Below, piece by piece: positions 7,358 to 22,094 of a stretch of DNA of 64,000 bases. Numbering within the stretch: position 1 is the first letter of the stretch; every line of letters starts with the position of its first letter. The notes beneath the pieces are model-generated. The model ran no database searches. It was given only the letters and a program-made list of their open reading frames with translations, and had not been told where the DNA came from. Source of the stretch: Escherichia phage 4MG; sequence record NC_022968.1; one strand, 5' to 3'. Both the position numbers and the translations under genes were made by a program.

Positions 7358-7412
7358 GAGTCCTCCCATTATACATGTTACGATTTTATCATAAATCTTG
7401 AGATAAAACAAT

Positions 7413-7436
7413 AAAAAAGGGGCCGAAGCCCCTTTA
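7413..7436. terminator. bidirectional hairpin terminator
   Basis: A-run, GGGGC-cgaa-GCCCC, T-run; just downstream of tape measure stop. Confidence 0.5.
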
Positions 7437-7438
7437 AA

Positions 7439-9832
7439 TTATTGAGGAACACCAAGGATTAGGTTGATGTTACCCATGTTCGCAGCTTCAATCTGCTGGT
7501 CGATCATGTTCTTCATTTCGCCTGCGTCGATTTTGATCGTGATCTCACCGCTCACAGGTTCAGTTGGAATCACCATCGGAGGTGTTGCAGCCCCGGCTGG
7601 TCCAGGAACCATTCCATTCTGGTTCAGATAATCAAGTCTGCGCTGGTCAGTCATTGATCTCTGGCCTGTAATGAAGTCCCAAGCCTGTCCCATCCAAGAG
7701 TTTTTCTTCAGGTTACCACCTGCCGTGGTTTCAGTTCCATAAGTCTTATCGCTGTATTCCTGAGCAGAGTCGAAGACGTAATCTCCCAACAGCATACTCT
7801 CACCAGCGATCAGTGCAAACAAACCACCCTTACGTGCAAGCTTATTGCCAAGGCTTAATCCCTTGCCTTTACCCTTCTTCTTGCCCGGACCATCCTCTTC
7901 ACCACCGCCACCATTTCCAACACCAAAGATATCAGAGATAACCTTCAGTGCAGTGGAGAGACCAGCGATCTTAGTCAGGATGTTAAAGACACGAATAAGT
8001 GCAGAAGCGAAGAACAGAGCACCTACGCCCCAGCCTACCCATTTCCATGCAGAGGAAAGCTCTTCACCGTTCTTACGGAAGATCGGGATATAACGCTCCA
8101 TGATGCCTTGGATCAGGACAAAGGTGTTGTAGACAGTATAGACCATCTCCATAAACCCGGCTGTGAATCCAGCAAAGAATTGACCAAGATTTTGCGCAAG
8201 GGGACCGTTGGAGTCAAGAATTTTTGCGAGTTCGTTAAACGCGCTAGTTAATTCTTCACCAAAGCCACTCTGGAATACCTTGTTCTGGAAGTCCATCCAT
8301 GTTAATGTCAGACGCTGCATTGCAACACGGTTACCTTGCAGGGCTTTCTGAAGCGCACCACCCTTGTTTGCTGCCTCTGAGTAATACTTGGCAACGAATG
8401 GCAAGATTTTCGCAGCCTTCAGTTCACCCTTCTGCATCATGTCCATCATCTTGGTTACATCAATGGTGGAATCACCAAAAGCTTCCTGCGTTGCTTTGAG
8501 GAATACCTGTAGAGAACCAGGAATACCTTCCGCAAGCTGTTGCTTAAGTTCTTCAGCCATGATCTGACCTTTACCCATCATCTGTTGGATCGCAGTAATA
8601 CCACGTTGGTATTTAACTGGGTCAACCTGGAGGGCTGTTGAATATTCAGAGAAGGACTTGAATAGCTCATCGTTTTGTGATTTACTAAGAACACCGTTAG
8701 CGGCAATAGCCATTTGGGTGTAACCCTGTGCAGCAACTTTCAGGTCAAGACCTAAACGGTAGGACTGATCACGAACAAATTTCAGACGCTTACCTGCCTC
8801 TGCGGAGTCATCAGAAACCATCAGCATGGTTGCTTCCATACCCTGGAAGAACTGACCTGTTCTTACCACGCTTGCAGCAGCGTTGAATGCACCGTATGCA
8901 GCAGTTACACTCACCAACGTGCTACGCAGGTTCTTCAGCCCATCAGTCAAGGACAGGGTGTTCATGTTTGCTTTACGAAGTCCGGTCTCCATTGCAGCAA
9001 GTTCAGCACGGAAGTTTGAAGACTTCATGGTGTTGCTGTCAAGGAATCTTTCTTTCAGGGAGTCGAAACCCTTAAGTTTGGTTGCGTAGTTGTCACCATA
9101 TTTTGCACGAAGACGTACAGAGGCGTTGGCTACAGTTGATTCTTTACCTGCAAGATAACGAGAGTAACGAAGGTCTTCTGCCTCTTGTTTCTTACGGGCT
9201 TGTTCACGAGCACGAAGTTGCTCTCTGGATGCTTTCTGCTGTTGGCGTTGAACCTGCTGTTGCATTGCACGGTTTTGACGTGCAATCAGTGCCGGATCAG
9301 ATGCAGTACCACTACCAACCATGCCTGAAGCATTCCCTGATTTAGAACGGCGAGCCAGTTCCTCTTGCAGAGCAGCTTGACGTGCAGCAGAGATAGCGGG
9401 GTTTGTACCATAACCACCACCCGTTTTTTCCATTTGACGTAGACGTGCTTTCAGTCCATTATAGTCAGCTTGGGATTCAGGTGAACGTTTGGATGTCAGT
9501 TGAGCAACAGCTTGTTTTCTACGTGCTCTCTGGATCTTGTCAATTGCTTCACGAGCACGAGCCTCTTTCTTCGCCATAGCAATGTTATGGGCTGTGGTCT
9601 TTGCTTGTTCAGCACGTTCAGTTTGTTGCAGTCTTTTGTTGACAAGGCGAGCCTGCATTGCAGAACGCTTCAATGCTGCCGCTGGGTCTGACTTGCTGGC
9701 AGAGAATGCCTTACCAGCTTTTTCCCACTCAGTTTTCAAAGACTTCACAGCTTTCATGGCACGACCGAAGGAGGTCTTGTCCACGTCCCATGTGACTTTG
9801 TTGACTGTCTGGGTTACAATAATGTTCGCCAT
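7439..9832 (-). CDS. tail tape measure protein (797 aa)
   Basis: long A/Q/K/R-rich coiled-coil protein with Gly-rich segment, located after tail tube/chaperone genes. Confidence 0.7.
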   Translation of the reverse strand: MANIIVTQTVNKVTWDVDKTSFGRAMKAVKSLKTEWEKAGKAFSASKSDPAAALKRSAMQARLVNKRLQQTERAEQAKTTAHNIAMAKKEARAREAIDKIQRARRKQAVAQLTSKRSPESQADYNGLKARLRQMEKTGGGYGTNPAISAARQAALQEELARRSKSGNASGMVGSGTASDPALIARQNRAMQQQVQRQQQKASREQLRAREQARKKQEAEDLRYSRYLAGKESTVANASVRLRAKYGDNYATKLKGFDSLKERFLDSNTMKSSNFRAELAAMETGLRKANMNTLSLTDGLKNLRSTLVSVTAAYGAFNAAASVVRTGQFFQGMEATMLMVSDDSAEAGKRLKFVRDQSYRLGLDLKVAAQGYTQMAIAANGVLSKSQNDELFKSFSEYSTALQVDPVKYQRGITAIQQMMGKGQIMAEELKQQLAEGIPGSLQVFLKATQEAFGDSTIDVTKMMDMMQKGELKAAKILPFVAKYYSEAANKGGALQKALQGNRVAMQRLTLTWMDFQNKVFQSGFGEELTSAFNELAKILDSNGPLAQNLGQFFAGFTAGFMEMVYTVYNTFVLIQGIMERYIPIFRKNGEELSSAWKWVGWGVGALFFASALIRVFNILTKIAGLSTALKVISDIFGVGNGGGGEEDGPGKKKGKGKGLSLGNKLARKGGLFALIAGESMLLGDYVFDSAQEYSDKTYGTETTAGGNLKKNSWMGQAWDFITGQRSMTDQRRLDYLNQNGMVPGPAGAATPPMVIPTEPVSGEITIKIDAGEMKNMIDQQIEAANMGNINLILGVPQ

Positions 9833-9885
9833 TGATTTCCTCTCAATAAAAAAGCCAGGTTCCCGAAAAGGAACCCGGCTTGAGA

Positions 9886-10637
9886 TTAACCTCTTCTACC
9901 ACGGCGCGGCTTGCTAGCGGCTTGAGCAGCTTTTGCTTTACTTTCTTCCTCTCTCTCGTGGACATCGTTGACAAACTCTTCCACATCGAGAAACTCATTC
10001 AGCCTGAGCAGATAGGCCATATCCGCATGTTCAAGGGACATATAAGATTCCCCTTTGAAACTTTTCAGAGCACGACACCACAAGTAATCGAACCAAGTCA
10101 GTGAGCTATTTTTCTTTGCATACTCCATAGCCCTCAGGACGACTTTCGAAATTTTGGACGGTGTTACTCCGCTGCCACTTCCGTCGCCTGATCCACCGTA
10201 TTCACTTGATGGGTCTGTCCCAGGCGTCCCAGAAGTCCCTGAAGGTCTGCGAAACCGTCTTTCGTGAAAAAACAGCCGTAGTTGATCTCCAGAACTTTAG
10301 CAACAAGCTTAATGAGGTCTAACATTTTATCTTGGAACAGAGCGTCAATATCTACTTTACCCGCCATACCATCAACGGATACATCCTCAAGAATCAATGC
10401 GAAAAGTTTTTCGATATCATCTTGCTCCATCTGTTCAAAGAGGTATAGAATAGCAGTTGGGAGAGCGTCAGAAAGGTTCTGGCCTCCAGTCATCATGGAA
10501 CCAGAGATGGTTGCCATAGGGACTGCTACATAACGACCGATCTTCGGAAGGTTTTTCATAACCTTGGAAGGAGACCAGTGTGTGATAACAAAGTTGTGAC
10601 CTGCGAGGTCGATGTCAGTTGTTGGTCTGATATTCAT
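9886..10637 (-). CDS. tail assembly chaperone frameshift product (GT-like), made by -1 ribosomal frameshift at 10266..10272
   Basis: -1 frame is open from slippery site TGT TTT TTC through the downstream ORF 9886..10128 with no stop (hand-translated). Confidence 0.5.
10164..10637 (-). CDS. tail assembly chaperone (G-like, 157 aa)
   Basis: ORF between tail tube and tape measure; contains slippery heptamer TTTTTTC near its 3' end. Confidence 0.6.
   Translation of the reverse strand: MNIRPTTDIDLAGHNFVITHWSPSKVMKNLPKIGRYVAVPMATISGSMMTGGQNLSDALPTAILYLFEQMEQDDIEKLFALILEDVSVDGMAGKVDIDALFQDKMLDLIKLVAKVLEINYGCFFTKDGFADLQGLLGRLGQTHQVNTVDQATEVAAE
10266..10272 (-). promoter_or_regulatory. -1 programmed frameshift slippery heptamer T TTT TTC
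   Basis: plus strand reads GAAAAAA; X XXY YYZ pattern in zero frame of chaperone gene. Confidence 0.55.
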
Positions 10638-10712
10638 GTACGCTCCTGCGTCTTTGAGATTGAGAGATCCTTACGTGTTTGAAAGGCCACGTCCATGTGG
10701 CACACGAAACAC

Positions 10713-11186
10713 TTATACGATACCTGCAAGACCAGCAAGACCGAAGCCTGCGGAAGACAGAGTATCTGGGCTTAACCAAGCGTCGAGGATACCGATTTCC
10801 CAGTCCATCTGGCCCACTTCTGTACCGTAGGTCAGGTCTGGTTGTTTCTGAATCCAACCGATAGTGCTGAGACCCATACCCTGAGAACCTTCAAGAAGGA
10901 CAGGGAAGAAGATCAGCCCGGTGATAGAAGCTTGTTTCTGCCAGTTTGCGAAGTTTCCGTTCCAAGAAGCGGTGTTCTGGAGGGAAACCGTCATAACACC
11001 AGATTGGTTACGGGATAGTGCGGCAGACAGTTCACCATCAACCCCCATGTGGGGGATGATGTTATCTTCGTTACGAGCAACGACGATCTTGGTATCTGCG
11101 GCAAATCCGGTAACACGCTGAGTCATCAGGTATAGCTTGACTTTTTTAGGGTCGTAAGCATACGGTGTTAGGATAGCTGTATTCAT
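10713..11186 (-). CDS. tail tube protein (157 aa)
   Basis: small ORF immediately downstream of tail sheath gene. Confidence 0.55.
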   Translation of the reverse strand: MNTAILTPYAYDPKKVKLYLMTQRVTGFAADTKIVVARNEDNIIPHMGVDGELSAALSRNQSGVMTVSLQNTASWNGNFANWQKQASITGLIFFPVLLEGSQGMGLSTIGWIQKQPDLTYGTEVGQMDWEIGILDAWLSPDTLSSAGFGLAGLAGIV

Positions 11187-11189
11187 TTA

Positions 11190-12602
11190 TTACACTCCTG
11201 CTGTTACAGTCTGACCGTTTCCGGAACTAGACCCTGTTTTATCTAACAGAACGGTCATGCGGATCTTAACGAAGTGCAGTGGTGTGTTGTACACAAGTTC
11301 CACTTTCACGTTGTTCAGAGTACGAGCAGCCAGATCGTTAGTCGGGATGTTTGCACGAAGCGGGATAGTGATCACCGGATCGTAGAACACTTTGTTAACG
11401 TCATCGTATCCGGTCAGGATAGAACCGTTAGCGATACCTACGTTGATAGGGTTGTTCAGCATCACAGACTTCAGGTTTGGCAGATCGTCATCACTCATCT
11501 TCATGGACAGGCCCTGATTAGAACGACGAGACATGTAGCCGAACACGCTTTCTTCTGTGCGGAATTTCAGCCAGTGACCGAAACGAACAACGTCAACATA
11601 GTTGCCGGAAGCACATTTGCCTTCGTAGAAGGAACCAACACCGTTAATCATACGGTAGAAGTTCAGGTTCTGACCCCAAATGGTCATACGGTCTGTTGCG
11701 CTCAGAACTGGAGCGATAACACCTTCCATAGTCTTCAGGTGAATAGAGTCACCATAAGAAGGATCGTTGGAAGCCATTGCACCGATGATACCACCTTCGG
11801 AGAACGCGCTATCCGCAAGCGGATCGTACATACCGATAGAGGTGTCGTACTGAAGAGCTTTCAGTTGGTTTGCAATAGAGTTGCTACCCGCTGTTTTAAC
11901 CAGTTCGTCAGCAGTTGCATAGACGTGCAGCTTGTAGTTAGCAGCAGCGAATGATGCAGCAGCCAGAATGGATGCGTTAGTGTGAGATTCGGTGCTCAGG
12001 AAGTACCAGTTCTCAGTTGCAGTCAGGATCTGAGGAAGAACAGAGGATACAGTTTCACTTGAAGTGTTGCTGATCACCATGTTTCCGCTGTCGCGCCCGA
12101 CGCTGAATGCACCACCGTTCTTAGGAACGATTGTTACCACACCTGCGCTTGCAGTTGCAGTCAAAACAGTGGTCAGGGTTGCATCACCGTTCAGAGATGC
12201 TGCCAGAGCGGTAGCAATACTGGTTGGTGTAGATGCACCAGTTACCGCCACGATAACGCTGGTCTGATATGCACCAGAAACTACGTTCAGGGCTACAGGA
12301 GCGTCAGGGTCGGTATTGACCTGTCCGGTGAAGTCCACGATGGTGTTAGTAAAGCCTTGACGACCAACCATCAGGTACTGAGGACGGAATGTTCCAGCGA
12401 ATGCTTTTGTTGCGAAGACATAAGCTGGGGAACCTGGAGCGAATCCATCATCTACTAGCTGATCGAGTTCGGTATAAGCGCGAAAACGTTCAGGGAAGAC
12501 GTTGTGGATAGCCAGGAACAGCGGGGTTTCAAACCCTTTGGTGTCGATTGGTTGAGTACCAAGCGCGACTGTTACGTCAACCACCTTATCATTATAAGCC
12601 AT
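11190..12602 (-). CDS. tail sheath protein (470 aa)
   Basis: 470 aa ORF followed by tube gene; N-terminus MAYNDKVVDVTVALGT typical of contractile sheath proteins. Confidence 0.7.
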   Translation of the reverse strand: MAYNDKVVDVTVALGTQPIDTKGFETPLFLAIHNVFPERFRAYTELDQLVDDGFAPGSPAYVFATKAFAGTFRPQYLMVGRQGFTNTIVDFTGQVNTDPDAPVALNVVSGAYQTSVIVAVTGASTPTSIATALAASLNGDATLTTVLTATASAGVVTIVPKNGGAFSVGRDSGNMVISNTSSETVSSVLPQILTATENWYFLSTESHTNASILAAASFAAANYKLHVYATADELVKTAGSNSIANQLKALQYDTSIGMYDPLADSAFSEGGIIGAMASNDPSYGDSIHLKTMEGVIAPVLSATDRMTIWGQNLNFYRMINGVGSFYEGKCASGNYVDVVRFGHWLKFRTEESVFGYMSRRSNQGLSMKMSDDDLPNLKSVMLNNPINVGIANGSILTGYDDVNKVFYDPVITIPLRANIPTNDLAARTLNNVKVELVYNTPLHFVKIRMTVLLDKTGSSSGNGQTVTAGV

Positions 12603-12642
12603 CGGTTTCCTCTTCTTTATTTCTGTACATACAGTTATTGAC

Positions 12643-12683
12643 CAGCACCTCGTTGTGCTGTATTATGAGGGCCGAAGCCCTCT
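12643..12683 (-). other. pair of stem-loops upstream of tail sheath gene
   Basis: CAGCAC-ctcgtt-GTGCTG and GAGGGC-cgaa-GCCCTC in intergenic region 12603..12732. Confidence 0.3.
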
Positions 12684-12732
12684 TATACGATCACTAATAA
12701 GCGAGAGCTTATCAATAACCGAGTGGTTTTCT

Positions 12733-13263
12733 TTAATCTTGAGCCGGGAAGTGATAAACGATTTGAGCGTTGATCTTCTCCAGGTCCTCGAAAGATCCGG
12801 TATCTGTTTCGATGAAGCATACGTTGAACGTAATCAGCACCACAGCACGGTTTTCGAACTTCTGCACGTTCAATGGGACTCTCAAACGAGAAATCGTCGA
12901 AGAGGATGAGTATGCAAAAGGAGAGTTGGTTGGGAAATACTTATCGTAAATGAACGGTAAGTTCATCGCCTGTAGCACCCTGCTTAAAGCATTGGGGGCC
13001 TTGCCACGGTAAGCTGTCAGAGTATACACAACCTCATAGTTGTGAACTGTCGTAGCGTTTCCGTTTACATCAAGCCCCTCGTCAGATTGCCAGTCAAGCT
13101 GGTCAACTGCTGTTAGGTCTACAAGAATGAATTCACCATCAATTTTGGGGATCTCATCCTCTCCTGCCAGAACCACCTTTCGGCCTGTGGTTTCTTTACA
13201 AAAAGAACCAACCGTTTTGGTAAGAGCATCAAAGATCTCATCGGAATTGGTGAATCCTGCCAT
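12733..13263 (-). CDS. hypothetical neck/tail completion protein (176 aa)
   Basis: ORF between head and sheath genes; function by position. Confidence 0.35.
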   Translation of the reverse strand: MAGFTNSDEIFDALTKTVGSFCKETTGRKVVLAGEDEIPKIDGEFILVDLTAVDQLDWQSDEGLDVNGNATTVHNYEVVYTLTAYRGKAPNALSRVLQAMNLPFIYDKYFPTNSPFAYSSSSTISRLRVPLNVQKFENRAVVLITFNVCFIETDTGSFEDLEKINAQIVYHFPAQD

Positions 13264-13700
13264 TAAATTCCTCCGTTTGTTCCTTCAGGAACAGACACCA
13301 CGTAAGCGCGGAAACGTGCAACACCTGTGGTCTGATATGCATCAGACTTGATCACGGTGAACCACACCATTTCCCCACGGGAATTCATCAGCTTAATTTG
13401 GTCAGCAAGTTCATTAGAACCTTCCACCGGACCGCGTAGCATCACTGAAGAGTACACGGTGAAGGAGTCATATTGTCTCCCACCTTCCTGCATCAGTTGA
13501 GATGTGTAATCTCGTGCGGCCTTACCAGTAAGCGGCTGAACAACGCATTCCAGGACATCAAACTCTTCATAGTCGATTTGGATGCCTTGGTTTTCAAATG
13601 GGTTGTCCATATCCACTTTGGCGTATTCTCTGTGTCGTCCAACAAATGTTGGTCGCGGGATCAGTTTGTTTCTACCAATAAGTCTGTAACCTTGAGCCAT
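13263..13700 (-). CDS. hypothetical neck protein (145 aa)
   Basis: ORF with overlapping stop/start in neck region. Confidence 0.35.
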   Translation of the reverse strand: MAQGYRLIGRNKLIPRPTFVGRHREYAKVDMDNPFENQGIQIDYEEFDVLECVVQPLTGKAARDYTSQLMQEGGRQYDSFTVYSSVMLRGPVEGSNELADQIKLMNSRGEMVWFTVIKSDAYQTTGVARFRAYVVSVPEGTNGGI

Positions 13701-14182
13701 TATACCCCCGAATCCTTACCTTTTGAAATTCTGAATGTTGTGGACTCTTTGAGGTCTCCATAATGGAACATCGCCTCTTTGAATCCCTTGACATCAGCCC
13801 AGGCATCAGATACTGTGTTGTGAGGGAAAAGTCCGGTGTCGATCACGAATTGGATTTTTCTCGCCCCGGCTTTACCAATCCTGTTGAGGATCGGGGTCAG
13901 GTTCTGACCACCCATTGCGAGATATGCAAACAGATCTTTTTGTAGTTTGTTCAGTTCCTTGTTAAAGGCAACTGCGGCACTGGTCATGAATGTACGAGCA
14001 GGTAGCCCGTTCCAGCCCTCTTGGTGAATCGCTGCGAGAGTCGCAGTATTAAGACCTGAGTAGTGAGGGTCATCGTAGTAACCGTATGATACTTGACGAT
14101 AATCAAGCACTTTGGTTGCCTTATAAAAGTTCTCTAACTGACTCAGATCTTGCTTACTTGTGAATTTTGGTCTCATAGCCAC
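13700..14182 (-). CDS. hypothetical neck protein (160 aa)
   Basis: ORF in neck region. Confidence 0.35.
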   Translation of the reverse strand: MAMRPKFTSKQDLSQLENFYKATKVLDYRQVSYGYYDDPHYSGLNTATLAAIHQEGWNGLPARTFMTSAAVAFNKELNKLQKDLFAYLAMGGQNLTPILNRIGKAGARKIQFVIDTGLFPHNTVSDAWADVKGFKEAMFHYGDLKESTTFRISKGKDSGV

Positions 14183-14241
14183 ATCCGTTTAGGTATTTTA
14201 CCACATTATCTTAGCAAAATCAACGATCAAGCGAAGGATAA

Positions 14242-14760
14242 TTAACGAGGCCAGCGGTGAGGGTATCTACGGGGGATTCCCGGTACACCAGTCTGGGGTA
14301 CAATGCCTGCAACATCGAAAGGACCTCTTGAGTTTGGATTCCTTTTAACGCGAAGATATTCATCTTGACGAACACCGCCAACAATGACTAAACTTGATAC
14401 CGCGCTGAGGCAATCATTCACATAATCCGGGTTAGCTTGCAGCCAGTCTAGGAAGTCTTTCCAGTTCTGGTATGTAGATCCACCCTTGACCTGGATAGTC
14501 TCGTCACCGATCTTTTCCAGACGTTCTGTGATAGATGCTTCACCAGAGTTAACTTCTTGCAGGATTAACCAACGAACGACATCCACCATCGTGTTATAGA
14601 TAACACGCCACATGTCGCAAGGGGTTGCATCAGGATTAGGCCACCCGGCCTTTACCTTTTCAATTGCAAGGAATGCCAGAATTGTTTCATCAGGCAAGAC
14701 CTCTGGAGGAATTGACCCAAGGAGCAGTCGAATGTAATCAATAATTTCTTGGTCTGTCAT
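14242..14760 (-). CDS. hypothetical head-tail connector protein (172 aa)
   Basis: ORF in neck region. Confidence 0.35.
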   Translation of the reverse strand: MTDQEIIDYIRLLLGSIPPEVLPDETILAFLAIEKVKAGWPNPDATPCDMWRVIYNTMVDVVRWLILQEVNSGEASITERLEKIGDETIQVKGGSTYQNWKDFLDWLQANPDYVNDCLSAVSSLVIVGGVRQDEYLRVKRNPNSRGPFDVAGIVPQTGVPGIPRRYPHRWPR

Positions 14761-14834
14761 TTTCGCTCCTGTTGGATTGCTCTTCTATTAATCAATATCT
14801 TATCATAAAAGATTCTATTTGTCATTAAAAAGAC

Positions 14835-14862
14835 TTGACAAGGCGTTATCACATGGTATATT
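14835..14862 (+). promoter_or_regulatory. sigma70-like promoter (TTGACA, 16 nt spacer, TATATT)
   Basis: -35 at 14835..14840, -10 at 14857..14862, upstream of RBS TAGGAGAA and ATG 14895. Confidence 0.5.
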
Positions 14863-14894
14863 AACCTTAATTAACGAACATAGGAGAACATTTT

Positions 14895-15299
14895 ATGAAG
14901 AATACTAAGGGAATTGTTTCACTGGCTGTCGGTGCTGTTGTTGCGGCTTTGGTGACGACCACCTACATCATGAAGCATCCAAATCTGGACAACATGCAAG
15001 CCATCGAATCAAGCTGGCTGTCGAAGGAAGAGAAAACAGCAAGTATCCATCGACTTGTGCGTTTGTCTTGCGACCAATCATTTCGTAAGGCATTTAAGCC
15101 TGGGGTGTCTGTAGTGCAGACAGGGGAGATGGATGAGATCACAGAGCAAGCAGAAGGCTATCAATATCTCAACGATGTGGCAATCCTCTATGGAACGAAA
15201 GGTTACAAAGGGGCATACATCTGCACATACTATAAAGATGGTAAAGAGCCTATGGTTAATGTGAATATGGAAGCGGGTGTTAAACCACTCCTAAAATAA
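14895..15299 (+). CDS. membrane-anchored protein (134 aa), plus-strand insert in minus-strand structural block
   Basis: ATG with strong RBS; N-terminal hydrophobic segment IVSLAVGAVVAALVTTTYIM; own promoter and flanking hairpin. Confidence 0.55.
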   Translation: MKNTKGIVSLAVGAVVAALVTTTYIMKHPNLDNMQAIESSWLSKEEKTASIHRLVRLSCDQSFRKAFKPGVSVVQTGEMDEITEQAEGYQYLNDVAILYGTKGYKGAYICTYYKDGKEPMVNVNMEAGVKPLLK

Positions 15300-15300
15300 A

Positions 15301-15316
15301 AGGCCCCGAAGGGCCT
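15301..15316. terminator. bidirectional hairpin terminator
   Basis: AGGCCC-cgaa-GGGCCT, A-run upstream and T-rich downstream on minus strand; between convergent genes 14895..15299 and 15322..15621. Confidence 0.5.
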
Positions 15317-15321
15317 TATGA

Positions 15322-15621
15322 TTACGCCATAATACCAGCGGCTTTTAGTTTTGCCAGCAGAGCGTTAAAGTCAGTAACCAGACCAGCAGCATCAGTTGCT
15401 GTACTGTTTGCCTGAGTTGCAGCCATTTTAACGCCACCAACTACGCTTGTAGTCGCAGCCACAGGTGCGAAAGTGGTTGGTTTGCCTGTGATATCAGCCC
15501 AAGCTACAGAACCACCGCCACCAGATCCTGAGATAATATCAGCAACGCTGATTGATTGTCCAGTACCAAGGTCGATGAGTTTAGTTGCGTAAAGCAGACC
15601 AGCTACACCAGAAGTTGCCAT
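15322..15621 (-). CDS. hypothetical protein, Ala/Gly/Thr-rich (99 aa)
   Basis: ORF with RBS. Confidence 0.35.
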   Translation of the reverse strand: MATSGVAGLLYATKLIDLGTGQSISVADIISGSGGGGSVAWADITGKPTTFAPVAATTSVVGGVKMAATQANSTATDAAGLVTDFNALLAKLKAAGIMA

Positions 15622-15634
15622 ATTTTATTTCTCC

Positions 15635-16279
15635 TTATAGGAATGAGTCGGGTAATGCAGGGATTGTTGCGATTGTGGAAGCTTGTTCCACTTGGTCAAG
15701 GTAAGACCAATAAGACTTCATCATTTCATACTGAGCACGAGAAACCTGTGTTACAAGGTCTTTCATTTCTGCATGGGTGAAGTCAGATTTGTATCCATCA
15801 AGGAATCGGAATGGGTAGACTTCTGAGGACTGATCCCCGTCTGCTTCCAGAACCGACTTAATGGAGAGAAGAGTCGCAAGGTCGAAGCTTTTAACTCTAA
15901 CTTTGTACTCAACATTGTCAACCGGATAAGGAATCCCGATATCAAGATCGCGAGATAGAATATTTTGAGCCGCAGCCTTGTAACTCTGCTTGGCAGATTC
16001 AAGGTTTGCTGCAATTTCTTCTGGCGTAAAATCTCTTGAGTTCCACGTCTGTTCCCATTGCTGAGTTTGGTCGTTGAAATGTGGAGCACCCTCAGTTACC
16101 ACATCACCAGTCGGAGGTGTGACAGGGATTACCGGAAAGTAGCCAAACTCAACAAGGTTCTCAGAATAAATCCAAGTACCGATGCTCACGTTAGGATTGT
16201 CTGCTCTGAAGTCAGCCAAGTAAACCGGATATCTCCCATCAGAAGACCTGATCATGGGTGTGTATGAATATACTACCAT
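15635..16279 (-). CDS. hypothetical tail fiber-associated protein (214 aa)
   Basis: ORF immediately downstream of collagen-like fiber gene, RBS AAGGAGAG. Confidence 0.4.
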   Translation of the reverse strand: MVVYSYTPMIRSSDGRYPVYLADFRADNPNVSIGTWIYSENLVEFGYFPVIPVTPPTGDVVTEGAPHFNDQTQQWEQTWNSRDFTPEEIAANLESAKQSYKAAAQNILSRDLDIGIPYPVDNVEYKVRVKSFDLATLLSIKSVLEADGDQSSEVYPFRFLDGYKSDFTHAEMKDLVTQVSRAQYEMMKSYWSYLDQVEQASTIATIPALPDSFL

Positions 16280-16295
16280 TTACTCTCCTTGAGAA

Positions 16296-16315
16296 GGGGC
16301 CGAAGCCCCTTTATT
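16296..16315. terminator. intergenic hairpin (GGGGC-cgaa-GCCCC) with T-run on plus strand
   Basis: stem-loop directly after stop of fiber gene. Confidence 0.35.
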
Positions 16316-18941
16316 AGTTGACAGTAAGAGAGGTTGTACCTGTCAGGTTTGTACCATCCCAAAGGATCGTAACAACTGTGCGGGTAGTTCCCAAAGTAAC
16401 CGCCGTACCGTTTGACCATGCTAAGTTTCCAGGCCACGTCAGTGACGCACCAGAACCTGTGAACACGATAACGATTGTCATTGCCCTGTTTGCAGGCAAA
16501 TTAGTAAAGCTCATGGTTTTGTTCGCTGTACCATCAACCTTGAAGACCTGAGACACGCTAACATCCATAGCTCCAGTTGAAGAAGTTACCAGAAGGTCGT
16601 AACGATCCAGTTTCTTCCATGCACTGTTTACACGAACGTAATAGCCGCTGTCAGCAGGGGCTTCAAGAACTGGCACATCTACCCAACCAGAACTTGTACG
16701 CGCCTGTGGCGTTGTTGAGGAGGTATCGTAGACGTTACCACCACCCATGTATCCCAGAGAAGCCCATACCGTAGCAGAAGTCTTCTGGAAATACTCAAGG
16801 GTGCTTTTGTTGATGAAGTAGTCACCAACACGTCCATCAGCAGGCCCTGGGTTACGTGGGAAGTTCAACCAAAGCGTACCTTGGTCACCTTTCACACCCT
16901 GGATACCCTGAGTACCTTGTGGACCCTGAGGTCCAGTTGGTCCAGCAGGCCCCGTAGGTCCTACGAATCCACCAACGTTGATCCAGTCATTGTCTGTTAC
17001 ACTCCAAACCCACAGGTCTGTTCCGATGATCCAGCCGTCACCTTCAGTACCTGTTGCTGGTAGATCAGCTTCAGATGCTTTGGTTCCTAGAGGTTTAATA
17101 CCAGCGCCCTGGTCTCCTTTAGGTCCTTGTGGGCCTGTTGGTCCGGTAGGACCTGCATCACCCTTCGGACCCTGTGGTCCATCAACACCTTGGAGTCCTT
17201 GGATACCCTGGTCTCCCTGAGGTCCTCGCATTACACCCAAGTTGGCCCAGTCAGAACCTGTAAAGGCAAAGCCCTCCCCGGTATCTACTGTGGTGTAATA
17301 ATCCCCATGAGATGCCCCAACCGGAAGGTCTGCTTCTGTTGGTACTGTTCCAAGAGGGTTAAGCGGAACACCCATTGGACCCTCAGGCCCTTGAGCACCA
17401 TCAGCACCAGCAGGCCCTGTATCTCCGGTGTCACCTTTAGGACCCTGAGGTCCATCAACACCTTGTGGACCCTGTGGGCCTGTAGGCCCGGTATCACCAG
17501 TGTCACCTTTATCGCCCTTCGGACCTACATATGGACCAACGTTGATCCACTGTGCATCAGATTGACTCCAGACATACAGGTTTGGTACAATGATCCAAGC
17601 ATCACCAGATGTTCCTGTCGCAGGAAGTTCAGATGTGGCACCTTTCGTACCGAGAACGCGAGCACTGTAACCTGTTTCACCACGGTCGCCCTTCGGACCT
17701 ACTGGTCCTTGAGGTCCAACTGGTCCGGTAAGGCCCGTGTCGCCCTTATCTCCTTTCGGACCTACGGGTCCCTGGATACCCTGTGCGCCGTCATTTCCCT
17801 GAGGACCCTGAGGTCCTGTTGGTCCGGTTGGACCTTGATCGCCTTTCTGTCCCTGTGGACCCTGAGGACCAACGTCACCATCGTCGCCTTTTGGCCCCTG
17901 AACAGGACCGATATCTTCCCATGCACCGTCAGAAGTCCACACCCAAACATGATTATCTGTTTGAACAACCCAAGCATCAGCAACGGCGTTGCCGAAAGCA
18001 GGAAGATCTGCGGTGGTGGCTTTTGTACCTTTCAGTTTAACAATGGCGGCATCGTTACCTTTATCGCCCTTCGGACCCTGAGGTCCTTGTGCGCCAGTAA
18101 GCCCTTGGATACCTTGAACACCCTGATCGCCTTTCTCACCACGATCACCTTTGTCACCTTTAGGTCCTTGTGGCCCTGTGGCACCAGTCGCACCCTGAGG
18201 CCCTGTTGGACCTACCTGACCAACTGGTTGCCAACCGTCAGCAGCGCCAGTCCATACCCACATCTGTTCTTGGACGATATAAGTATCACCCTCAGTGTTT
18301 CCTTCTGTAGGCAGGAATGCTGTGTCTGTGAAAGAGCCTTTGATTACAAGACCGATACCGTCCTGCCCTTGTGGACCTGCGAAGTCTCCAAGGTCAACCC
18401 ATTGCTGGTTTACAACAGTCCAGTAGTGTGTTCCAATAACGTATGTGTCGCCTTCCTGCATGGTTGATGCAGGTGGGAGTTGGGAAGGGTCTCCCAGAAT
18501 ACCTTGGATGTAAATACCAACACCCGGTTCACCTTGCGGCCCCTGGTCACCCTTATCCCCCTTTTCACCAGGTGGGACATACAGCCCCTCTTCACCTGGA
18601 TCAGTAACCTCAACAAGGGTGTTTCCATCCTTACTTGAGATCGGAATAACGATTTGAGGAGGAGCAACATACAGCTTTCCACCCGCCAATACAAGCAGGT
18701 TGTCACTGATTGTGCTGACACCAACGGAAAGACCGTCAGCACCAGCCACAAGAGCATTTCCGGAAGCAGGATCTACAATAACAGTTGCCTTCAGTGGGGT
18801 AGTGGATGTACCATTACCGAGAAGTGTGACGGTGGTCGTATCTTCCGTATGGAATTGACCATCATCAACAAAGGTCTCACCTGCACCGCCCTCAGGAAGG
18901 ATCAGTTCAGCGTTGACGACCTTATCATTGTAATCTGCCAT
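16314..18941 (-). CDS. collagen-like tail fiber protein (875 aa)
   Basis: multiple Gly-X-Y runs ([42 protein letters not shown]) separated by non-collagen segments. Confidence 0.65.
16840..18580 (-). repeat. in-frame collagen-like GGN-CCN nucleotide repeats
   Basis: reiterated ggtcc/ggacc motifs encoding G-X-Y triplets. Confidence 0.6.
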
Positions 18942-18950
18942 TTTTACCCC

Positions 18951-19484
18951 TTATTTTGCAGGCTCTAGTTCTTCAAGAGCAGCCTTGAAGTCAGCCATCA
19001 TGTTTTCGAAAGATTTGTTTTTCGCAAGGGTGATACCTTTGGTTGCAGCAAGATCAGCAAGTTTATCTTTGCTTCCTTTCTTATCAGCTTCATCATTAAG
19101 GGCTTCTGCCTGAGCCAGAATAGCTTCATAGCTTGCAGATTTAACCTCAACAACCTCAGTCTTGACATCTTCAACCTTAGGCGCTACAGTCGCTTCTACT
19201 GCCTTACCGCGACGGTTAGGGTTTGGAAGAGCACTGTTGAAAAATACGATGTATGTACCCATACGCAGTGTGGAATGTTCAGCATCAACATCCAGTCCGG
19301 AGATCTCTGCAAGAGCTTTGAAGAAGTCAACGGAGTTGCGGAAAGCTTTGTGCTCTTTTCCAACACAGAATCCATTCAGAGGAAGACGTGCTGATACCCC
19401 AACATTCAGGTCAGGAGCATAAGTGCCGAAGAATTTGAACAGTTCTACTTTGTTCGGGAAAATACGATAGTTTTGATTAGCCAT
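18951..19484 (-). CDS. hypothetical structural protein (177 aa)
   Basis: ATG at 19484 with RBS GGAGA; downstream of major capsid gene. Confidence 0.4.
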   Translation of the reverse strand: MANQNYRIFPNKVELFKFFGTYAPDLNVGVSARLPLNGFCVGKEHKAFRNSVDFFKALAEISGLDVDAEHSTLRMGTYIVFFNSALPNPNRRGKAVEATVAPKVEDVKTEVVEVKSASYEAILAQAEALNDEADKKGSKDKLADLAATKGITLAKNKSFENMMADFKAALEELEPAK

Positions 19485-19617
19485 AAAATCTCCATTGGTT
19501 ACCTTAGTAAAAACCACTTGACACCAGTCATGAAGTGGCTATTATTAAGGTGACGAAAATAAAAAAGGGAGAGGTGAATAATCACCTCCCCCTCTTAGAG
19601 GTAGCAGTTACGCTATC

Positions 19618-20631
19618 TTATGCGAAAGTACCAGTAGAGCGAACAACCAGTTCCGGACGGGTGTTAACAGTCAGGAAGGAAGTTTCGGACTCAACCTTTT
19701 CTTCGCGCAGGTATGCAGAAGATTTGTACCACAGGTACAGTTCTTGTGCAGGAGTGTTCGCGTCACGAACGTCATCTGCTGGTGCATAGTGAATCTGGAA
19801 CATGTCGTCGATTCCTTGCGGCAGAATGTAAGCTTCACCATCAGGGATGTAGTTGGAGATATCCTCGATGTAAGTTACGTTCTTGTGAACAAACATACGG
19901 TTGTTGGCGTTTTCCTGCCCTTGACCCAGACGACGACGAAGCGGCTCTTGAGTAGAAGAGTAGTATTGGTAAGCGTTCATTACCAGCGGATGAGCGATCA
20001 GCGCTGAGAACCACTTACGAGAAGCCAGAACTACGATGTTGTAGTTGTTACCGTTGTCACCAGCATTGTCGATGATGTACGCACGAGCGTCAGCTTCGAT
20101 GATGTCGGTTGGGTCGGTTGCTACATCGGTGAAGTCGATGTTAGCTGTGTGCTGAGTAACACCCCACTCGGTGAAGTAGTTGTACTGAGCAGTTGGGTCC
20201 TGTGGTGCCCAGGATTTACCCATGATCGCCTGAAGCATTGCTTTTTCTTTCAGTTGTTCATGAGAGATGCGGATACGACGAACCACACGAGCAACAACAT
20301 CTTCTACAGTCTTCGGAGCGTCAGCAGTAAAATACTTACGGAAGTTCTGTACGTCTGCCGCTGTGATCTGACGATCCAGTGGGAAGAACGGAATGTTGAA
20401 GTTTCTCAGTTGGGCCTTTTCAGTACCAACGTAGTTACGTTCACCCTGACGACGACGAGCCGGGAAGTCAGTTACAACTTCATCAACACGTTCGATCTGA
20501 GCGATAGTCGTTACACCGTGGTACGCTGTGAACAGGTCCATATTGGTGATCAGACGGTACTGACGTGGTACGATTTCCAGAGTCGCGCCGAGATCGACGA
20601 TCTGGAAGTCATTAGTGCGTACTACTGCCAT
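19618..20631 (-). CDS. major capsid protein, lambda gpE-like (337 aa)
   Basis: length and motifs (DPTDIIEADARAYII, YIPDGEAYILPQG) resemble lambda E family by recall; follows decoration gene. Confidence 0.75.
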   Translation of the reverse strand: MAVVRTNDFQIVDLGATLEIVPRQYRLITNMDLFTAYHGVTTIAQIERVDEVVTDFPARRRQGERNYVGTEKAQLRNFNIPFFPLDRQITAADVQNFRKYFTADAPKTVEDVVARVVRRIRISHEQLKEKAMLQAIMGKSWAPQDPTAQYNYFTEWGVTQHTANIDFTDVATDPTDIIEADARAYIIDNAGDNGNNYNIVVLASRKWFSALIAHPLVMNAYQYYSSTQEPLRRRLGQGQENANNRMFVHKNVTYIEDISNYIPDGEAYILPQGIDDMFQIHYAPADDVRDANTPAQELYLWYKSSAYLREEKVESETSFLTVNTRPELVVRSTGTFA

Positions 20632-20652
20632 TGTTATTCTCCTTGGTGTAGA

Positions 20653-21072
20653 TTAGATAGACGTTACTGGGATCTCAACGGAACCGTCGTAATATTTATC
20701 AGTGATCTTCAGACCTTTGGCCTCAAGAGCAGCGATAGCGGCAGCGTTGATTGCAGTAGTACCGTCAGCGAAAAACAGTTTGGATTTGTTCAGGGTCAGA
20801 CCACGAACAGCCACGACGAAGTTGTACTTCTGTCCTACCACGAAAGGACGTGGAGCAGAGTATGCAGGAACCAGGTCACGGTCAGTGATCACACCAAAAG
20901 CGCTTGCAGCGTCAGCAGTTGCGGCAAGAGTACCGTCTGCCTTAACGATCATACCAGCCTTCAGGCCTGCGGCGTAGGTGATTTCCATTTCTAGGAAGCT
21001 GTAGCCCTGGTCAGAAGAGTCAACTTTACCCAGAACGATGTCAGAGTAGTACCCTTGGATTGGATTAGCCAT
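20653..21072 (-). CDS. head decoration protein, lambda gpD-like (139 aa)
   Basis: small Ala/Gly-rich protein immediately upstream of capsid gene. Confidence 0.55.
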   Translation of the reverse strand: MANPIQGYYSDIVLGKVDSSDQGYSFLEMEITYAAGLKAGMIVKADGTLAATADAASAFGVITDRDLVPAYSAPRPFVVGQKYNFVVAVRGLTLNKSKLFFADGTTAINAAAIAALEAKGLKITDKYYDGSVEIPVTSI

Positions 21073-21092
21073 TTATTTAAATCTCCTCGATA

Positions 21093-22094
21093 TTAGGCGT
21101 TTTGTGCAGCTTCACGAGCGCGAGCTTTCGCTTTCTCGATGTTAGCTTTCAGAATGTCTTCAGCAGACTTGTTGATGTCATCAACAGGCGCTTCAGCACC
21201 AGAGCCGTGTTCAGCAGTGCTGAATTCTTTCTTCACGGTTTCAACTTCTGTTTCCAGTTCGCTAATACGAGCCTGAGCTTTTTCCAGAAGAGCTACTACC
21301 GGAGCGTTAGCTTTTTCGATGATGAAGTCAGCCAGAGCGGAATGGTCTGCATCAGTAGCAAAGGTGAAACCTTTAGCTTTGGTCAGAGCAGCATTCTTTT
21401 CTACTTCCACAGCAGCTTTGATGATTTCATCAGCTTGTGCGGCTTTAGCTTTGGCATCTTCCAGTTGCTTAACCAGGTCAAGATATTCTTGAGACTTGGT
21501 TACATCAGTAACATTATCGGACACTGAGGTCTCCTTATTTTCTTTGGATGTATCAATTACAGGGTCAGTACCTGCTTCTTTGACGACCCCAGTTACCTGG
21601 AGATCTTTGGACTCACCTTCTGTGAAGGTCAGACCTAATTCGCTTACACCTTTTTCAAACAGTTGCTGAAGTTTCAGCAGTTCGTACTGTTTAACAAGGT
21701 CAATTTCTTCACCACTGTTTGCAGCCTTGGCGATGGAGATGGACTCCATACGTTCTTCAAGCCATTCCTGATGTTGTGCATTCCACGCTTGGACCCATTC
21801 ATCGTCAGGATTTTCAGCAGCTTCGTTTTCAAGTTCTGTTTCAAAGCCCAGTAGCTTAGTAAGCAGTTCCGCGTCATCACTCCACATATAGAAGAATCTA
21901 CGCAGGAATTCTTCAAAGCTCATAGAGACAGTAACTTGCTGCAATGCCTTGATAACGTCTTCAGTAATCTGTTCTGGTTTCAGGTCAGACTTCATCAGAA
22001 GTGACACTGGTCTCAGGTTTGCAGAAAAACCTTGACTCTCGTGGCAGAGTGCGATACCCTTCTCTTTAATGGCTTTGGCTTTAGCAATTGTCAT
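21093..22094 (-). CDS. putative scaffolding protein (333 aa)
   Basis: acidic, highly alpha-helical/coiled-coil composition (EAKAKAAQADEIIKAAVEVEK); between portal and capsid. Confidence 0.45.
   Translation of the reverse strand: MTIAKAKAIKEKGIALCHESQGFSANLRPVSLLMKSDLKPEQITEDVIKALQQVTVSMSFEEFLRRFFYMWSDDAELLTKLLGFETELENEAAENPDDEWVQAWNAQHQEWLEERMESISIAKAANSGEEIDLVKQYELLKLQQLFEKGVSELGLTFTEGESKDLQVTGVVKEAGTDPVIDTSKENKETSVSDNVTDVTKSQEYLDLVKQLEDAKAKAAQADEIIKAAVEVEKNAALTKAKGFTFATDADHSALADFIIEKANAPVVALLEKAQARISELETEVETVKKEFSTAEHGSGAEAPVDDINKSAEDILKANIEKAKARAREAAQNA

What the first reader, a model, noticed from the sequence alone, without database searches (positions are those of the whole stretch)
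14820..15320. Plus-strand membrane-protein gene inserted in the minus-strand structural operon
A single plus-strand gene (134 aa, N-terminal membrane anchor) with its own sigma70-like promoter, strong RBS and a bidirectional terminator sits between neck and fiber genes that are all on the other strand. This is the classic layout of a moron, a candidate superinfection-exclusion or host-modifying factor.
Basis: partly seen in the sequence, partly recalled or inferred. Interest (0 to 1): 0.6.

Follow-up and report, generated by a model that had tools for sequence, protein, structure and literature searches.

The report
Inverted accessory membrane-protein gene in phage
A real, self-contained small gene for an inner-membrane-anchored periplasmic protein sits backwards inside the structural genes of a PVP-SE1-like (Seunavirus) phage. 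It is already annotated in relatives as "membrane protein", is kept by one clade of these phages, and its function is still unknown, so it is a modest rather than surprising finding.

Summary
Bases 14895..15299 (+) encode a 134-aa protein, the only plus-strand gene in a 28-kb minus-strand structural block. It has a near-consensus sigma70 promoter (TTGACA-16-TGgTATATT), an AGGAG ribosome-binding site and a GC hairpin shared with the converging gene.

The window is a Seunavirus-like member of the Vequintavirinae. The gene is the orthologue of PVP-SE1 gene 66 / GAP31_206 (phrog_11434, "membrane protein").

It keeps the same place and inverted orientation in Seunavirus, Mydovirus and Avunavirus. 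It is absent at that site in rV5, CR3 and Hena1, and no E. coli genome or plasmid carries it. Selection is strongly purifying (dN/dS about 0.05). The -35 box and the extended -10 TG are invariant in five phages. One Klebsiella phage lineage carries a frameshifted copy, so the gene is probably dispensable.

AlphaFold (pLDDT 89) gives an N-terminal transmembrane helix plus a 12-kDa cystatin/NTF2-like domain with two invariant cysteines. No sequence or specific fold relative has a known function.

Verdict: an old, clade-fixed, moron-like accessory cassette, not a recent moron. My best guess is an envelope binder or superinfection-exclusion-type protein, and that is unproven.

The parts
14835..14862 (+). 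Sigma70-type promoter: -35 TTGACA (14835..14840), 16-nt spacer ending in TG (extended -10), -10 TATATT (14857..14862), with an A-tract (TTAAAAAGAC) just upstream
   Evidence: 11/12, TG present. In one search the -35 box, the A-tract and the TG are invariant in 5 phages while the spacer diverges. One search shows the same A-tract+TTGACA layout at promoter-like sites in and around the tRNA cluster and in the plus-strand non-structural region. One search shows the enrichment over chance.
14882..14886 (+). Shine-Dalgarno AGGAG, 8 nt upstream of the ATG
   Evidence: A GGAG core is kept in the orthologues.
14895..15299 (+). CDS for a 134-aa membrane protein (phrog_11434; orthologue of PVP-SE1 gene 66 and GAP31_206)
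   Evidence: dN/dS is 0.04-0.05.
14913..14969 (+). Codons 7-25: N-terminal transmembrane signal-anchor (IVSLAVGAVVAALVTTTYI), preceded by MKNTKG
   Evidence: KD 2.12. In one search all 18 family members have KD about 2.2 and 1-2 Lys in the N-flank. AlphaFold helix 2-27.
14976..15296 (+). Codons 28-134: predicted periplasmic 12-kDa alpha+beta domain. It has a helix at 44-64 packed on a 4-stranded antiparallel sheet at 72-125, with invariant C59 and C110 and the SWLSxxEK and CDxxFRxAFxPG motifs
15300..15317 (.). GC-rich hairpin AAGGCCCCGAAGGGCCTT. It is an intrinsic terminator with a T-run for the converging minus-strand head-fibre gene, and a hairpin without a T-run for the plus-strand gene
   Evidence: Annotated in both directions in PVP-SE1.
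14797..14825 (-). Back-to-back minus-strand promoter-like element (ATGACA-17-TGaTAAGAT) for the adaptor/neck/tail genes. It resembles the rV5 late motif TggTAaAAtA
   Evidence: The sequence is conserved. The late motif is quoted from PMC3606486. The assignment to late transcription is an inference.
14242..14760 (-). Flanking gene: portal adaptor / head completion protein (172 aa), divergently transcribed
   Evidence: PF26075 Phage_Adaptor_PhiTE. The W70 homologue was found in virions.
15322..15621 (-). Flanking gene: 99-aa head-fibre-like protein, convergently transcribed
   Evidence: PF11133.

Best explanation
This is a self-contained accessory transcription unit, 'moron-like' in layout. It was acquired once, before Seunavirus, Mydovirus and Avunavirus diverged, in the gap between the head operon's terminator and the neck/tail operon's promoter, and it has been kept since.

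Shown in silico:
- It is a real protein-coding gene under purifying selection.
- It has a conserved sigma70 promoter with an extended -10.
- Its product has a short Lys-bearing N-terminus, one strongly hydrophobic helix, and a 12-kDa alpha+beta domain of cystatin/NTF2-like topology with two invariant cysteines.

Inferred:
- Host RNA polymerase transcribes it independently of the surrounding late genes, probably early.
- The protein inserts N-in/C-out in the inner membrane and displays a disulfide-stabilised domain in the periplasm.
- That domain acts as a binder or inhibitor of an envelope component rather than as an enzyme or a virion part.
- The most likely biological role is protection or modification of the infected cell's envelope, of the superinfection-exclusion type, as with T4 Imm/Sp or T5 Llp.

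Confidence is about 0.85 for 'non-structural, autonomously expressed, inner-membrane/periplasmic accessory protein' and about 0.3 for superinfection exclusion specifically. The figure given is for the package.
For: - Gene reality and constraint: dN/dS is 0.044 against GAP31 (dS 0.97) and 0.05 against LNA4. Length is conserved at 131-137 aa and 22 columns are invariant in 18 sequences.
- Promoter footprint: TTGACA, the upstream A-tract and the TG are invariant in 5 phages whose proteins are 40-73% identical to the window's, while the spacer is free to vary.
- Promoter class: the same A-tract+TTGACA layout occurs at promoter-like sites in and around the tRNA cluster and in the plus-strand non-structural region.
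- Distribution: the gene is in 64 phage records against 255 that carry the neighbouring adaptor gene. It is syntenic and inverted in PVP-SE1, GAP31, KB57, Av-05 and a metagenomic contig. It is absent at the site in rV5, Hena1 and CR3. Carriers are exactly the phages whose adaptor is at least 80% identical, which points to a single gain.
- Dispensability: a 1-nt deletion truncates the protein at about codon 113 in the K54lambda/rec1-6 lineage, which comes from two separate submissions.
- Topology: KD is about 2.2 in all members, with Lys in the N-flank, and both Cys are invariant.
- It is not the spanin. The window has its own Rz/Rz1 pair at 25952..26643, as reported for the subfamily (PMC7344957).
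- Local recombination island: 18.3% nucleotide difference inside 14831..15299 against 4.9% in the flanks when compared with LNA4, p = 1e-17. The left breakpoint falls exactly at the -35 box.
- Precedent: exclusion proteins are typically made early in infection (PMC9586334).
Against: - There is no expression, localisation or phenotype data for any family member.
- No homology exists to any exclusion, defence, lysis or other characterised family. Pfam, NCBIfam, PADLOC and PDB sequence searches were all negative. Foldseek found nothing at E < 0.05 in the PDB, and in BFVD only the protein's own orthologue.
- The cystatin/NTF2-like roll is a very common simple fold, so the 'inhibitor' reading is weak.
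- The divergence island is not a genome-wide outlier. Per-gene dS against LNA4 ranges 0.04-2.3, and the cassette's 1.07 is about the 85th percentile, so mosaicism alone does not argue for an arms race.
- The -10 region also resembles the rV5 late motif, so late expression is not excluded.
- The neighbour is a head-fibre-like gene, not a proven receptor-binding protein, so the T5 llp/pb5 analogy is loose.
- A secondary table may list the protein as structural in PVP-SE1.
Confidence: 0.4

Rival explanations
1. It is an envelope-directed host-takeover or counter-defence factor other than exclusion. The periplasmic cystatin-like domain would inhibit a host periplasmic enzyme (a protease or peptidoglycan hydrolase) or an envelope-located defence or sensor, so improving phage yield rather than blocking other phages.
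For: It rests on the same anatomy as the main explanation. The top fold matches are protease inhibitors, namely latexin, cystatins and a fungalysin propeptide. The gene is clade-specific and dispensable.
Against: The cystatin motifs are not present in the right places: there is no QxVxG hairpin loop, and identity to any inhibitor is 6-11%. No target is suggested by gene context, and there is no PADLOC or Pfam hit.
Confidence: 0.2
2. It is a lysis-timing regulator analogous to the T4 RI antiholin: a small bitopic protein whose periplasmic domain binds the holin and delays lysis.
For: The size and topology are those of RI, which is 97 aa with an N-terminal anchor and a periplasmic domain (own knowledge). 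The TM segment is 42% Gly/Ala/Ser/Thr. PVP-SE1 and rV5 carry rIIA/rIIB (PMC7344957).
Against: It is not linked to any lysis gene; the spanins lie 11 kb away next to the terminase. It is absent from rV5, which also has rII genes. RI is all-alpha, whereas this protein is an alpha+beta roll (RI fold from own knowledge). The TM segment is strongly hydrophobic (KD about 2.2), unlike a typical releasable SAR domain.
Confidence: 0.12
3. It is a virion or morphogenesis protein, for example a membrane-associated assembly factor, kept among the structural genes because it acts with them.
For: It has strict synteny between the adaptor and head-fibre genes in three genera. 'PVP-SE1_gp065' is listed without an orthologue among PVP-SE1 structural proteins in Table S6 of PMC11370258, and in the paired rows of that table the identifiers follow RefSeq locus tags, under which gp065 is this protein.
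Against: It lies on the opposite strand, with a host-type promoter, a TM anchor and a likely periplasmic disulfide. It is frameshifted in a viable lineage. It is absent from rV5, CR3/phiTE and W70, whose virions share the same architecture and 19-20 structural proteins. The table's product name, 'conserved hypothetical protein', is that of gene 65 (the adaptor) and not 'hypothetical membrane protein', so a numbering slip is likely.
Confidence: 0.07
4. The promoter mainly drives antisense or regulatory transcription into the late genes, and the ORF is incidental.
For: A second conserved plus-strand TTGACA promoter-like site at 19518..19545 also points against the late operon and has no credible ORF behind it. 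The hairpin has no T-run on the plus strand, so read-through into the head-fibre gene is possible.
Against: The ORF shows clear coding constraint: dN/dS is 0.05 with dS about 1, the length is conserved, and there are invariant motifs, a strong RBS and a confident fold.
Confidence: 0.03

Closest known systems
PVP-SE1 gene 66 (RefSeq locus tag PVP-SE1_gp065, YP_004893872), GAP31_206, KB57_068, Av05_0081; PHROG phrog_11434 'membrane protein'
   Same: These are orthologues: 73-90% identity within Seunavirus and 40-50% to Mydovirus and Avunavirus. They share the length, the place between the adaptor and head-fibre genes, the inverted orientation, the promoter and the hairpin.
   Different: The window's allele is no more than 90% identical to anything in a 5.8-billion-protein collection. 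None of the orthologues has an assigned function. Some GenBank records misname the family as 'putative portal protein' or 'adenosine deaminase'.
Morons of lambdoid phages (the promoter-gene-terminator insertions of HK97/HK022 described by Juhala, Hendrix and colleagues; own knowledge)
   Same: It is a single gene with its own promoter and a hairpin, lying between structural genes on the opposite strand. It is absent at the site in related genomes and is probably dispensable.
   Different: The phage is virulent, so prophage expression and lysogenic conversion do not apply. The composition is not atypical. The insertion is old and fixed across three genera under purifying selection. The gene on the far side of the site differs between genera, so a clean 'adjacent genes' comparison is not possible.
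Early envelope superinfection-exclusion proteins of virulent coliphages: T4 Imm and Spackle, T5 Llp
   Same: These are small envelope-targeted proteins of lytic phages made early from host-type promoters (own knowledge). The T5 llp gene also sits among late genes beside a virion gene, in the opposite orientation (own knowledge).
   Different: There is no sequence or fold relationship. Spackle is all-helical and secreted, Llp is an outer-membrane lipoprotein, and Imm is a polytopic membrane protein (own knowledge). This protein has a single signal-anchor and an alpha+beta roll. No exclusion phenotype has been tested.
Cystatin / latexin / NTF2-like alpha+beta roll, including the periplasmic domains of the bitopic type IV secretion proteins VirB8, TraE and DotI
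   Different: Identity is 4-13%. Foldseek gives no significant match and no profile hit exists. The sheet has four strands and there is no cavity-forming extra helix or cystatin inhibitory loop. The resemblance is at fold level only.
T4 RI antiholin
   Same: It is a bitopic protein of about 100-130 aa with a periplasmic domain, encoded by a large virulent myovirus (own knowledge).
   Different: The fold is unrelated, there is no linkage to lysis genes, and the TM is too hydrophobic for a typical SAR domain.

Membership tests
phrog_11434 / PVP-SE1 gp66-like membrane proteins | Full-length profile match | tested here: met
   E = 2.6e-72, residues 1-134 on profile positions 1-134; 73-90% identity to annotated members.
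phrog_11434 / PVP-SE1 gp66-like membrane proteins | Conserved position and orientation between the adaptor and head-fibre genes | tested here: met
Moron (autonomous accessory insertion) | Own promoter and terminator flanking a single gene | tested here: met
   The promoter is 11/12 with TG and is conserved. The hairpin is conserved, though its T-run is on the other strand in this phage. This is an in-silico test only.
Moron (autonomous accessory insertion) | Present in some genomes and absent at the same site in related genomes | tested here: met
   Absent in rV5, Hena1 and CR3, where only a 60-126-nt gap precedes the adaptor gene. Present in three genera. The far-side neighbour differs between genera.
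Moron (autonomous accessory insertion) | Nucleotide composition different from the surrounding genome | tested here: not met
   GC is 0.447 against a gene mean of 0.466 +/- 0.025. GC3 is 0.467 against 0.450 +/- 0.047.
Moron (autonomous accessory insertion) | Not needed for lytic growth | tested here: inconclusive
   A frameshifted allele occurs in the viable K54lambda/rec1-6 phages. The truncated 121-aa product might keep some function, and no knockout exists.
Moron (autonomous accessory insertion) | Expressed independently of the phage late programme, or from a prophage, to the benefit of the host | not testable with these tools
   No transcriptome was found. The phage is virulent.
Superinfection-exclusion proteins (T4 Imm/Sp, T5 Llp, P22 SieA, Cor) | Homology to a known exclusion family | tested here: not met
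   No Pfam, PHROG, NCBIfam, PADLOC, PDB-sequence or fold match to any of them.
Superinfection-exclusion proteins (T4 Imm/Sp, T5 Llp, P22 SieA, Cor) | Envelope location | tested here: met
   Predicted N-in signal anchor with the bulk of the protein periplasmic and two invariant Cys. This is a prediction only.
Superinfection-exclusion proteins (T4 Imm/Sp, T5 Llp, P22 SieA, Cor) | Expression is sufficient to block infection by the same or related phages | not testable with these tools
   Needs plating, adsorption and DNA-entry assays.
Cystatin superfamily (protease inhibitors) | Helix-on-sheet cystatin fold | tested here: met
Cystatin superfamily (protease inhibitors) | Inhibitory motifs: N-terminal Gly, QxVxG first hairpin loop, PW second loop | tested here: not met
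   By inspection of the alignment no such motifs sit at loop positions. The conserved motifs are SWLSxxEK, CDxxFRxAFxPG and YICxYxK. Identity to cystatins is 6-11%.
i-spanin (Rz) | N-terminal TM with a coiled-coil periplasmic domain and an adjacent or embedded o-spanin lipoprotein gene | tested here: not met
   The periplasmic domain is an alpha+beta roll. The window's spanin pair is at 26239..26643 and 25952..26242.
T4 RI-type antiholin | Weakly hydrophobic releasable SAR anchor, helical periplasmic domain and linkage to holin function | tested here: not met
   The TM has KD about 2.2. The fold is not helical. No lysis-gene linkage exists. Function itself is not testable here.

The most novel reading that the evidence does not exclude
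The family is a previously unrecognised class of envelope immunity or superinfection-exclusion protein in virulent Enterobacterales myoviruses (Seunavirus, Mydovirus, Avunavirus). It would be an early-made, inner-membrane-tethered, disulfide-bonded cystatin-like periplasmic inhibitor that blocks an incoming phage's penetration machinery or a host envelope enzyme. The promoter-plus-gene cassette would be swapped between phages as alternative alleles.
Probability: 0.25. Interest if true: 0.55.

Novelty: new member of a known kind. Interest (0 to 1): 0.3.

Why it matters
PVP-SE1-like, KB57-like and Av-05-like phages are used or proposed for biocontrol and therapy against Salmonella, Cronobacter, Klebsiella and E. 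coli. A conserved, host-promoter-driven envelope protein could affect how such phages behave in cocktails, through mutual exclusion, through adsorption to already infected cells, or through lysis timing. It is also a clean, small, dispensable target for functional work.

As it stands, the gene is an already annotated 'membrane protein' of unknown function. What this analysis adds:
- the phyletic boundary, consistent with a single gain;
- the conserved promoter footprint;
- the fold;
- the likely periplasmic disulfide;
- the frameshifted natural allele;
- the cassette-shaped recombination island.

Tried and rejected
- Sequence searches for function gave nothing. Pfam had only sub-threshold noise (XRCC1_N, DUF5831). 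NCBIfam gave noise. PADLOC gave none. The PDB profile search gave noise.
- An exhaustive HMM search of 1.84 billion representatives found only 4 true family representatives, plus long repetitive proteins that I treat as spurious.
- Fold searches gave fold-level matches only. Foldseek on PDB and BFVD was not significant apart from the protein's own orthologue. The afdb50 library was unavailable.
- Host or plasmid origin is rejected. No match was found in 5,426 E. coli genomes or in PLSDB.
- The i-spanin idea is rejected.
- An 'arms-race outlier' reading of the divergence island was tempered after the genome-wide dS survey showed pervasive mosaicism.
- An Rfam scan of 14000..16000 gave only a chance hit on the hairpin.
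- Literature searches for transcriptomes, phenotypes or proteomics of this gene found nothing specific.
- The PVP-SE1 primary paper could not be read, and the CB7 supplements are not held.
- I tried to resolve the 'PVP-SE1_gp065' entry by comparing gene numbers, locus tags and product names. It stayed ambiguous.
- A SAR-domain reading of the anchor is inconclusive and leans against.

Full report
**What is there**

Bases 14895..15299 on the plus strand hold an ATG-started ORF of 134 codons.
- Promoter: it lies 33 nt upstream of the ATG. It has TTGACA at 14835..14840, a 16-nt spacer ending in TG, and TATATT at 14857..14862. This is the best promoter-like site in 13500..17000.
- Ribosome-binding site: AGGAG lies 8 nt before the ATG.
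- Hairpin: the stop codon is followed at once by AAGGCCCCGAAGGGCCTT (15300..15317, about -12 kcal/mol).
- Enrichment: promoter matches of this quality occur 9 times in the window, against 0.85 +/- 1.2 in Markov-1 simulations.
- Strand: a greedy ORF map shows this is the only plus-strand gene within the minus-strand structural block 341..28064.

First, the T-run of the hairpin is on the minus strand, so it is a proper terminator for the converging 99-aa gene and only a bare hairpin for this gene. Second, the immediate neighbours are the portal adaptor and a head-fibre-like gene. The adaptor is 172 aa (phrog_2663, PF26075), and its homologue is a virion protein in phage W70. The head-fibre-like gene is 99 aa (PF11133). 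The 214-aa protein and the 875-aa collagen-like fibre come next.

**Where the window comes from**

The region is 80-92% identical in DNA to Seunavirus phages of the Vequintavirinae: GAP31, EC152, LNA4, PVP-SE1 and SSE121. The gene matches phrog_11434 'membrane protein' end to end (E = 2.6e-72). It is the orthologue of PVP-SE1 gene 66. The depositors of that genome called it a hypothetical membrane protein with one TM and annotated terminators in both directions, but no promoter.

**Distribution**

- tblastn finds the protein in 64 phage records: Klebsiella 29, Salmonella 14, Escherichia 8, Cronobacter 7 and others. The adaptor next door is found in 255 records.
- It sits in the same place and inverted orientation in PVP-SE1, GAP31, KB57 (Mydovirus), Av-05 (Avunavirus) and a metagenomic contig.
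- At the homologous site in rV5 (Vequintavirus), Hena1 (Henunavirus) and CR3 (Certrevirus), the operon runs straight into the adaptor gene across a gap of 60-126 nt.
- Carriers are exactly the phages whose adaptor is at least 80% identical to the window's. Non-carriers are at 70% or below. One gain in the common ancestor of the three carrier genera is the simplest history (inference).
- The family is tiny. It has 17 clusters at 90% identity in 5.8 billion proteins and 4 representatives at 50% identity in 1.84 billion, all 131-137 aa.
- There is no copy in 5,426 complete E. coli genomes or in PLSDB plasmids.

**Is it a working gene?**

- dN/dS is 0.044 against GAP31 (dS 0.97) and 0.05 against LNA4 (dS 1.07).
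- Twenty-two columns are invariant in 18 sequences, including S40, W41, E46, R53, C59, D60, F63, R64, F67, P69, E84, Q90, Y108, I109, C110 and K114.
- The -35 hexamer, the A-tract before it and the TG of the extended -10 are invariant in five phages. The spacer between them is free to vary, which is the footprint expected of a real promoter.
- The same A-tract+TTGACA layout is found at promoter-like sites in and around the 25-tRNA cluster and in the plus-strand non-structural region. This fits transcription by host RNA polymerase (inference).
- The -10 region (TGGTATATTA) also resembles the late-gene motif TggTAaAAtA reported for rV5 (PMC3606486). Expression may therefore not be limited to early times.
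- Composition is ordinary: GC 0.447 against 0.466 +/- 0.025, and GC3 0.467 against 0.450 +/- 0.047.
- A 1-nt deletion at about codon 113 truncates the protein in the Klebsiella K54lambda1.1.1 and rec1-6 phages, which come from two independent submissions. The gene is therefore probably dispensable for lytic growth.

**Recombination**

- Against LNA4, 86 of 469 positions differ inside 14831..15299. In the flanks 13700..15640, 72 of 1472 differ (Fisher p = 1e-17).
- The 71 nt upstream of the -35 box are identical, and divergence starts at the -35 box. It ends at about 15285.
- Synonymous divergence is 1.07 in the gene. It is 0.17 in the adaptor and 0.30 in the head-fibre gene.
- The same valley appears against GAP31, PVP-SE1 and the metagenomic contig.
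- So the promoter-plus-gene unit has its own history. However, a survey of 58 genes against LNA4 shows that mosaicism is general, with dS ranging 0.04-2.3 and a median of 0.56. The cassette is at about the 85th percentile. I therefore read it as one mosaic segment whose borders coincide with its regulatory signals, not as special evidence of an arms race.

**The protein**

- Anchor: residues 7-25 form a strongly hydrophobic segment, with KD 2.12 here and about 2.2 in all 18 members. One or two lysines precede it, and no clear signal-peptidase site is conserved.
- Model: AlphaFold2 with the 18-sequence alignment gives pLDDT 89.4. It shows a helix at 2-27, a short helix at 34-38, a long helix at 44-64, four antiparallel strands at 72-125 and a short C-terminal helix.
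- Topology (inference): the lysines, the near-absence of an N-terminal tail and the two invariant cysteines (one in the long helix, one in the third strand) fit an N-in/C-out signal-anchor with a disulfide-bonded 12-kDa periplasmic domain.
- Foldseek finds nothing significant in the PDB, and only the protein's own orthologue in BFVD.
- Pfam, NCBIfam, PADLOC and PDB sequence searches are empty.
- The cystatin inhibitory motifs are absent.
- The fold therefore says 'small binding module' and nothing more specific.

**What it most likely does**

The gene is not the i-spanin. The window has its own Rz/Rz1 pair next to the terminase, as reported for rV5, PVP-SE1 and CB7 (PMC7344957).

It is unlikely to be structural, for four reasons:
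- it lies on the opposite strand;
- it has a host-type promoter;
- it has a membrane anchor;
- it has a viable frameshifted allele, and it is absent from genera that share 19-20 virion proteins.

One caveat remains. [quoted passage not shown] In the paired rows of that table the identifiers follow RefSeq locus tags, under which gp065 is this protein. But the product name is that of gene 65, the adaptor. The bold type that marks mass-spectrometry hits is lost in the held text, and the primary paper is not held.

My best reading is an independently and probably early-expressed, inner-membrane-tethered periplasmic binder that modifies or protects the envelope of the infected cell. Superinfection exclusion is the single most likely role, at about 0.3. 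This rests on analogy with T4 Imm/Sp and T5 Llp (own knowledge; early expression of exclusion proteins in PMC9586334). Rivals are another envelope-directed inhibitor role (0.2), an RI-like lysis regulator (0.12), a virion or assembly role (0.07) and a mainly antisense-regulatory role (0.03).

**Comparison and novelty**

In layout the locus is a moron, with a promoter, a gene and a hairpin, and it is absent at the site in relatives. It fails the compositional criterion, it sits in a virulent phage, and it is old and fixed in a clade.

The gene family is already in the databases as an uncharacterised membrane protein. The window contributes a new allele, at most 90% identical to known ones. I rate it a new member of a known kind, with interest 0.3.

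Noticed in passing
window 19518..19595: A second plus-strand sigma70-like promoter (AAAAACCAC-TTGACA-16-TATTAT, 11/12) lies in the gap between the 188-aa gene and the major capsid gene. It points straight into the conserved capsid-gene terminator hairpin (AAAAAAGGGAGAGGTGAATAATCACCTCCCCCTCTT). The -35 box and the hairpin are invariant in PVP-SE1, GAP31, a metagenomic contig and KB57. It could be a short antisense or early transcript, or elements read on the other strand.
   Followed up: partly
L010 2444..2809 (Klebsiella phage vB_Kpn_K54_rec4), also K54lambda1.1.1 and rec1-6: A 1-nt deletion (aaagatggt to aaaga-ggt) frameshifts the orthologue at about codon 113. The result is a 121-aa product that lacks the last strand and the C-terminal helix.
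   Followed up: yes
window 1..64000 compared with Escherichia phage LNA4 (L012+L013): Mosaicism is pervasive. Per-gene synonymous divergence ranges from 0.04 (10164..10637) to 2.3 (15635..16279), with a median of 0.56. The sharply different segments include the spanins and the 474-aa gene at 26640..28064.
   Followed up: partly
window 25952..26643: An Rz/Rz1-type spanin pair (o-spanin 96 aa, i-spanin 134 aa, with overlapping stop and start) lies directly next to the large terminase gene (24353..25951), away from any endolysin or holin.
   Followed up: partly
window 28264..34878, minus strand: A cluster of 25 tRNA genes. One call (30264..30333) has an abnormal 2-base anticodon loop assignment and may be a pseudo-tRNA or a miscall.
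   Followed up: no
window 14797..14825, minus strand: A conserved back-to-back promoter-like element (ATGACA-17-TGaTAAGAT) lies upstream of the adaptor gene. It resembles the late-gene motif TggTAaAAtA reported for rV5.
   Followed up: partly
GenBank records KR296684 and MW006477 (Salmonella phages 19 and GEC_vB_MG); OK181858, OK181861 and ON075799 (Escherichia phages 19-1-2, 24-2-1 and TH18): Orthologues of this membrane protein are annotated as 'putative portal protein' or 'adenosine deaminase'. These labels look like annotation errors.
   Followed up: no
Table S6 of PMC11370258: PVP-SE1 identifiers follow RefSeq locus tags, which are one less than the original gene numbers, while the product names do not match either scheme. 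This makes the list of PVP-SE1 'structural proteins' ambiguous, for example for gp065, gp057 and gp048.
   Followed up: partly
window 46176..46661, minus strand: A 161-aa minus-strand ORF lies inside the otherwise plus-strand non-structural block. It overlaps the ends of its neighbours and may be another inverted insertion or a spurious ORF.
   Followed up: no
window 16314..18941: The 875-aa fibre gene is built of many collagen-like G-X-Y runs alternating with globular repeats. It has the highest GC of the block (0.524). Its W70 homologue family (phrog_3904) had the highest spectral count in that phage's virion proteome.
   Followed up: no
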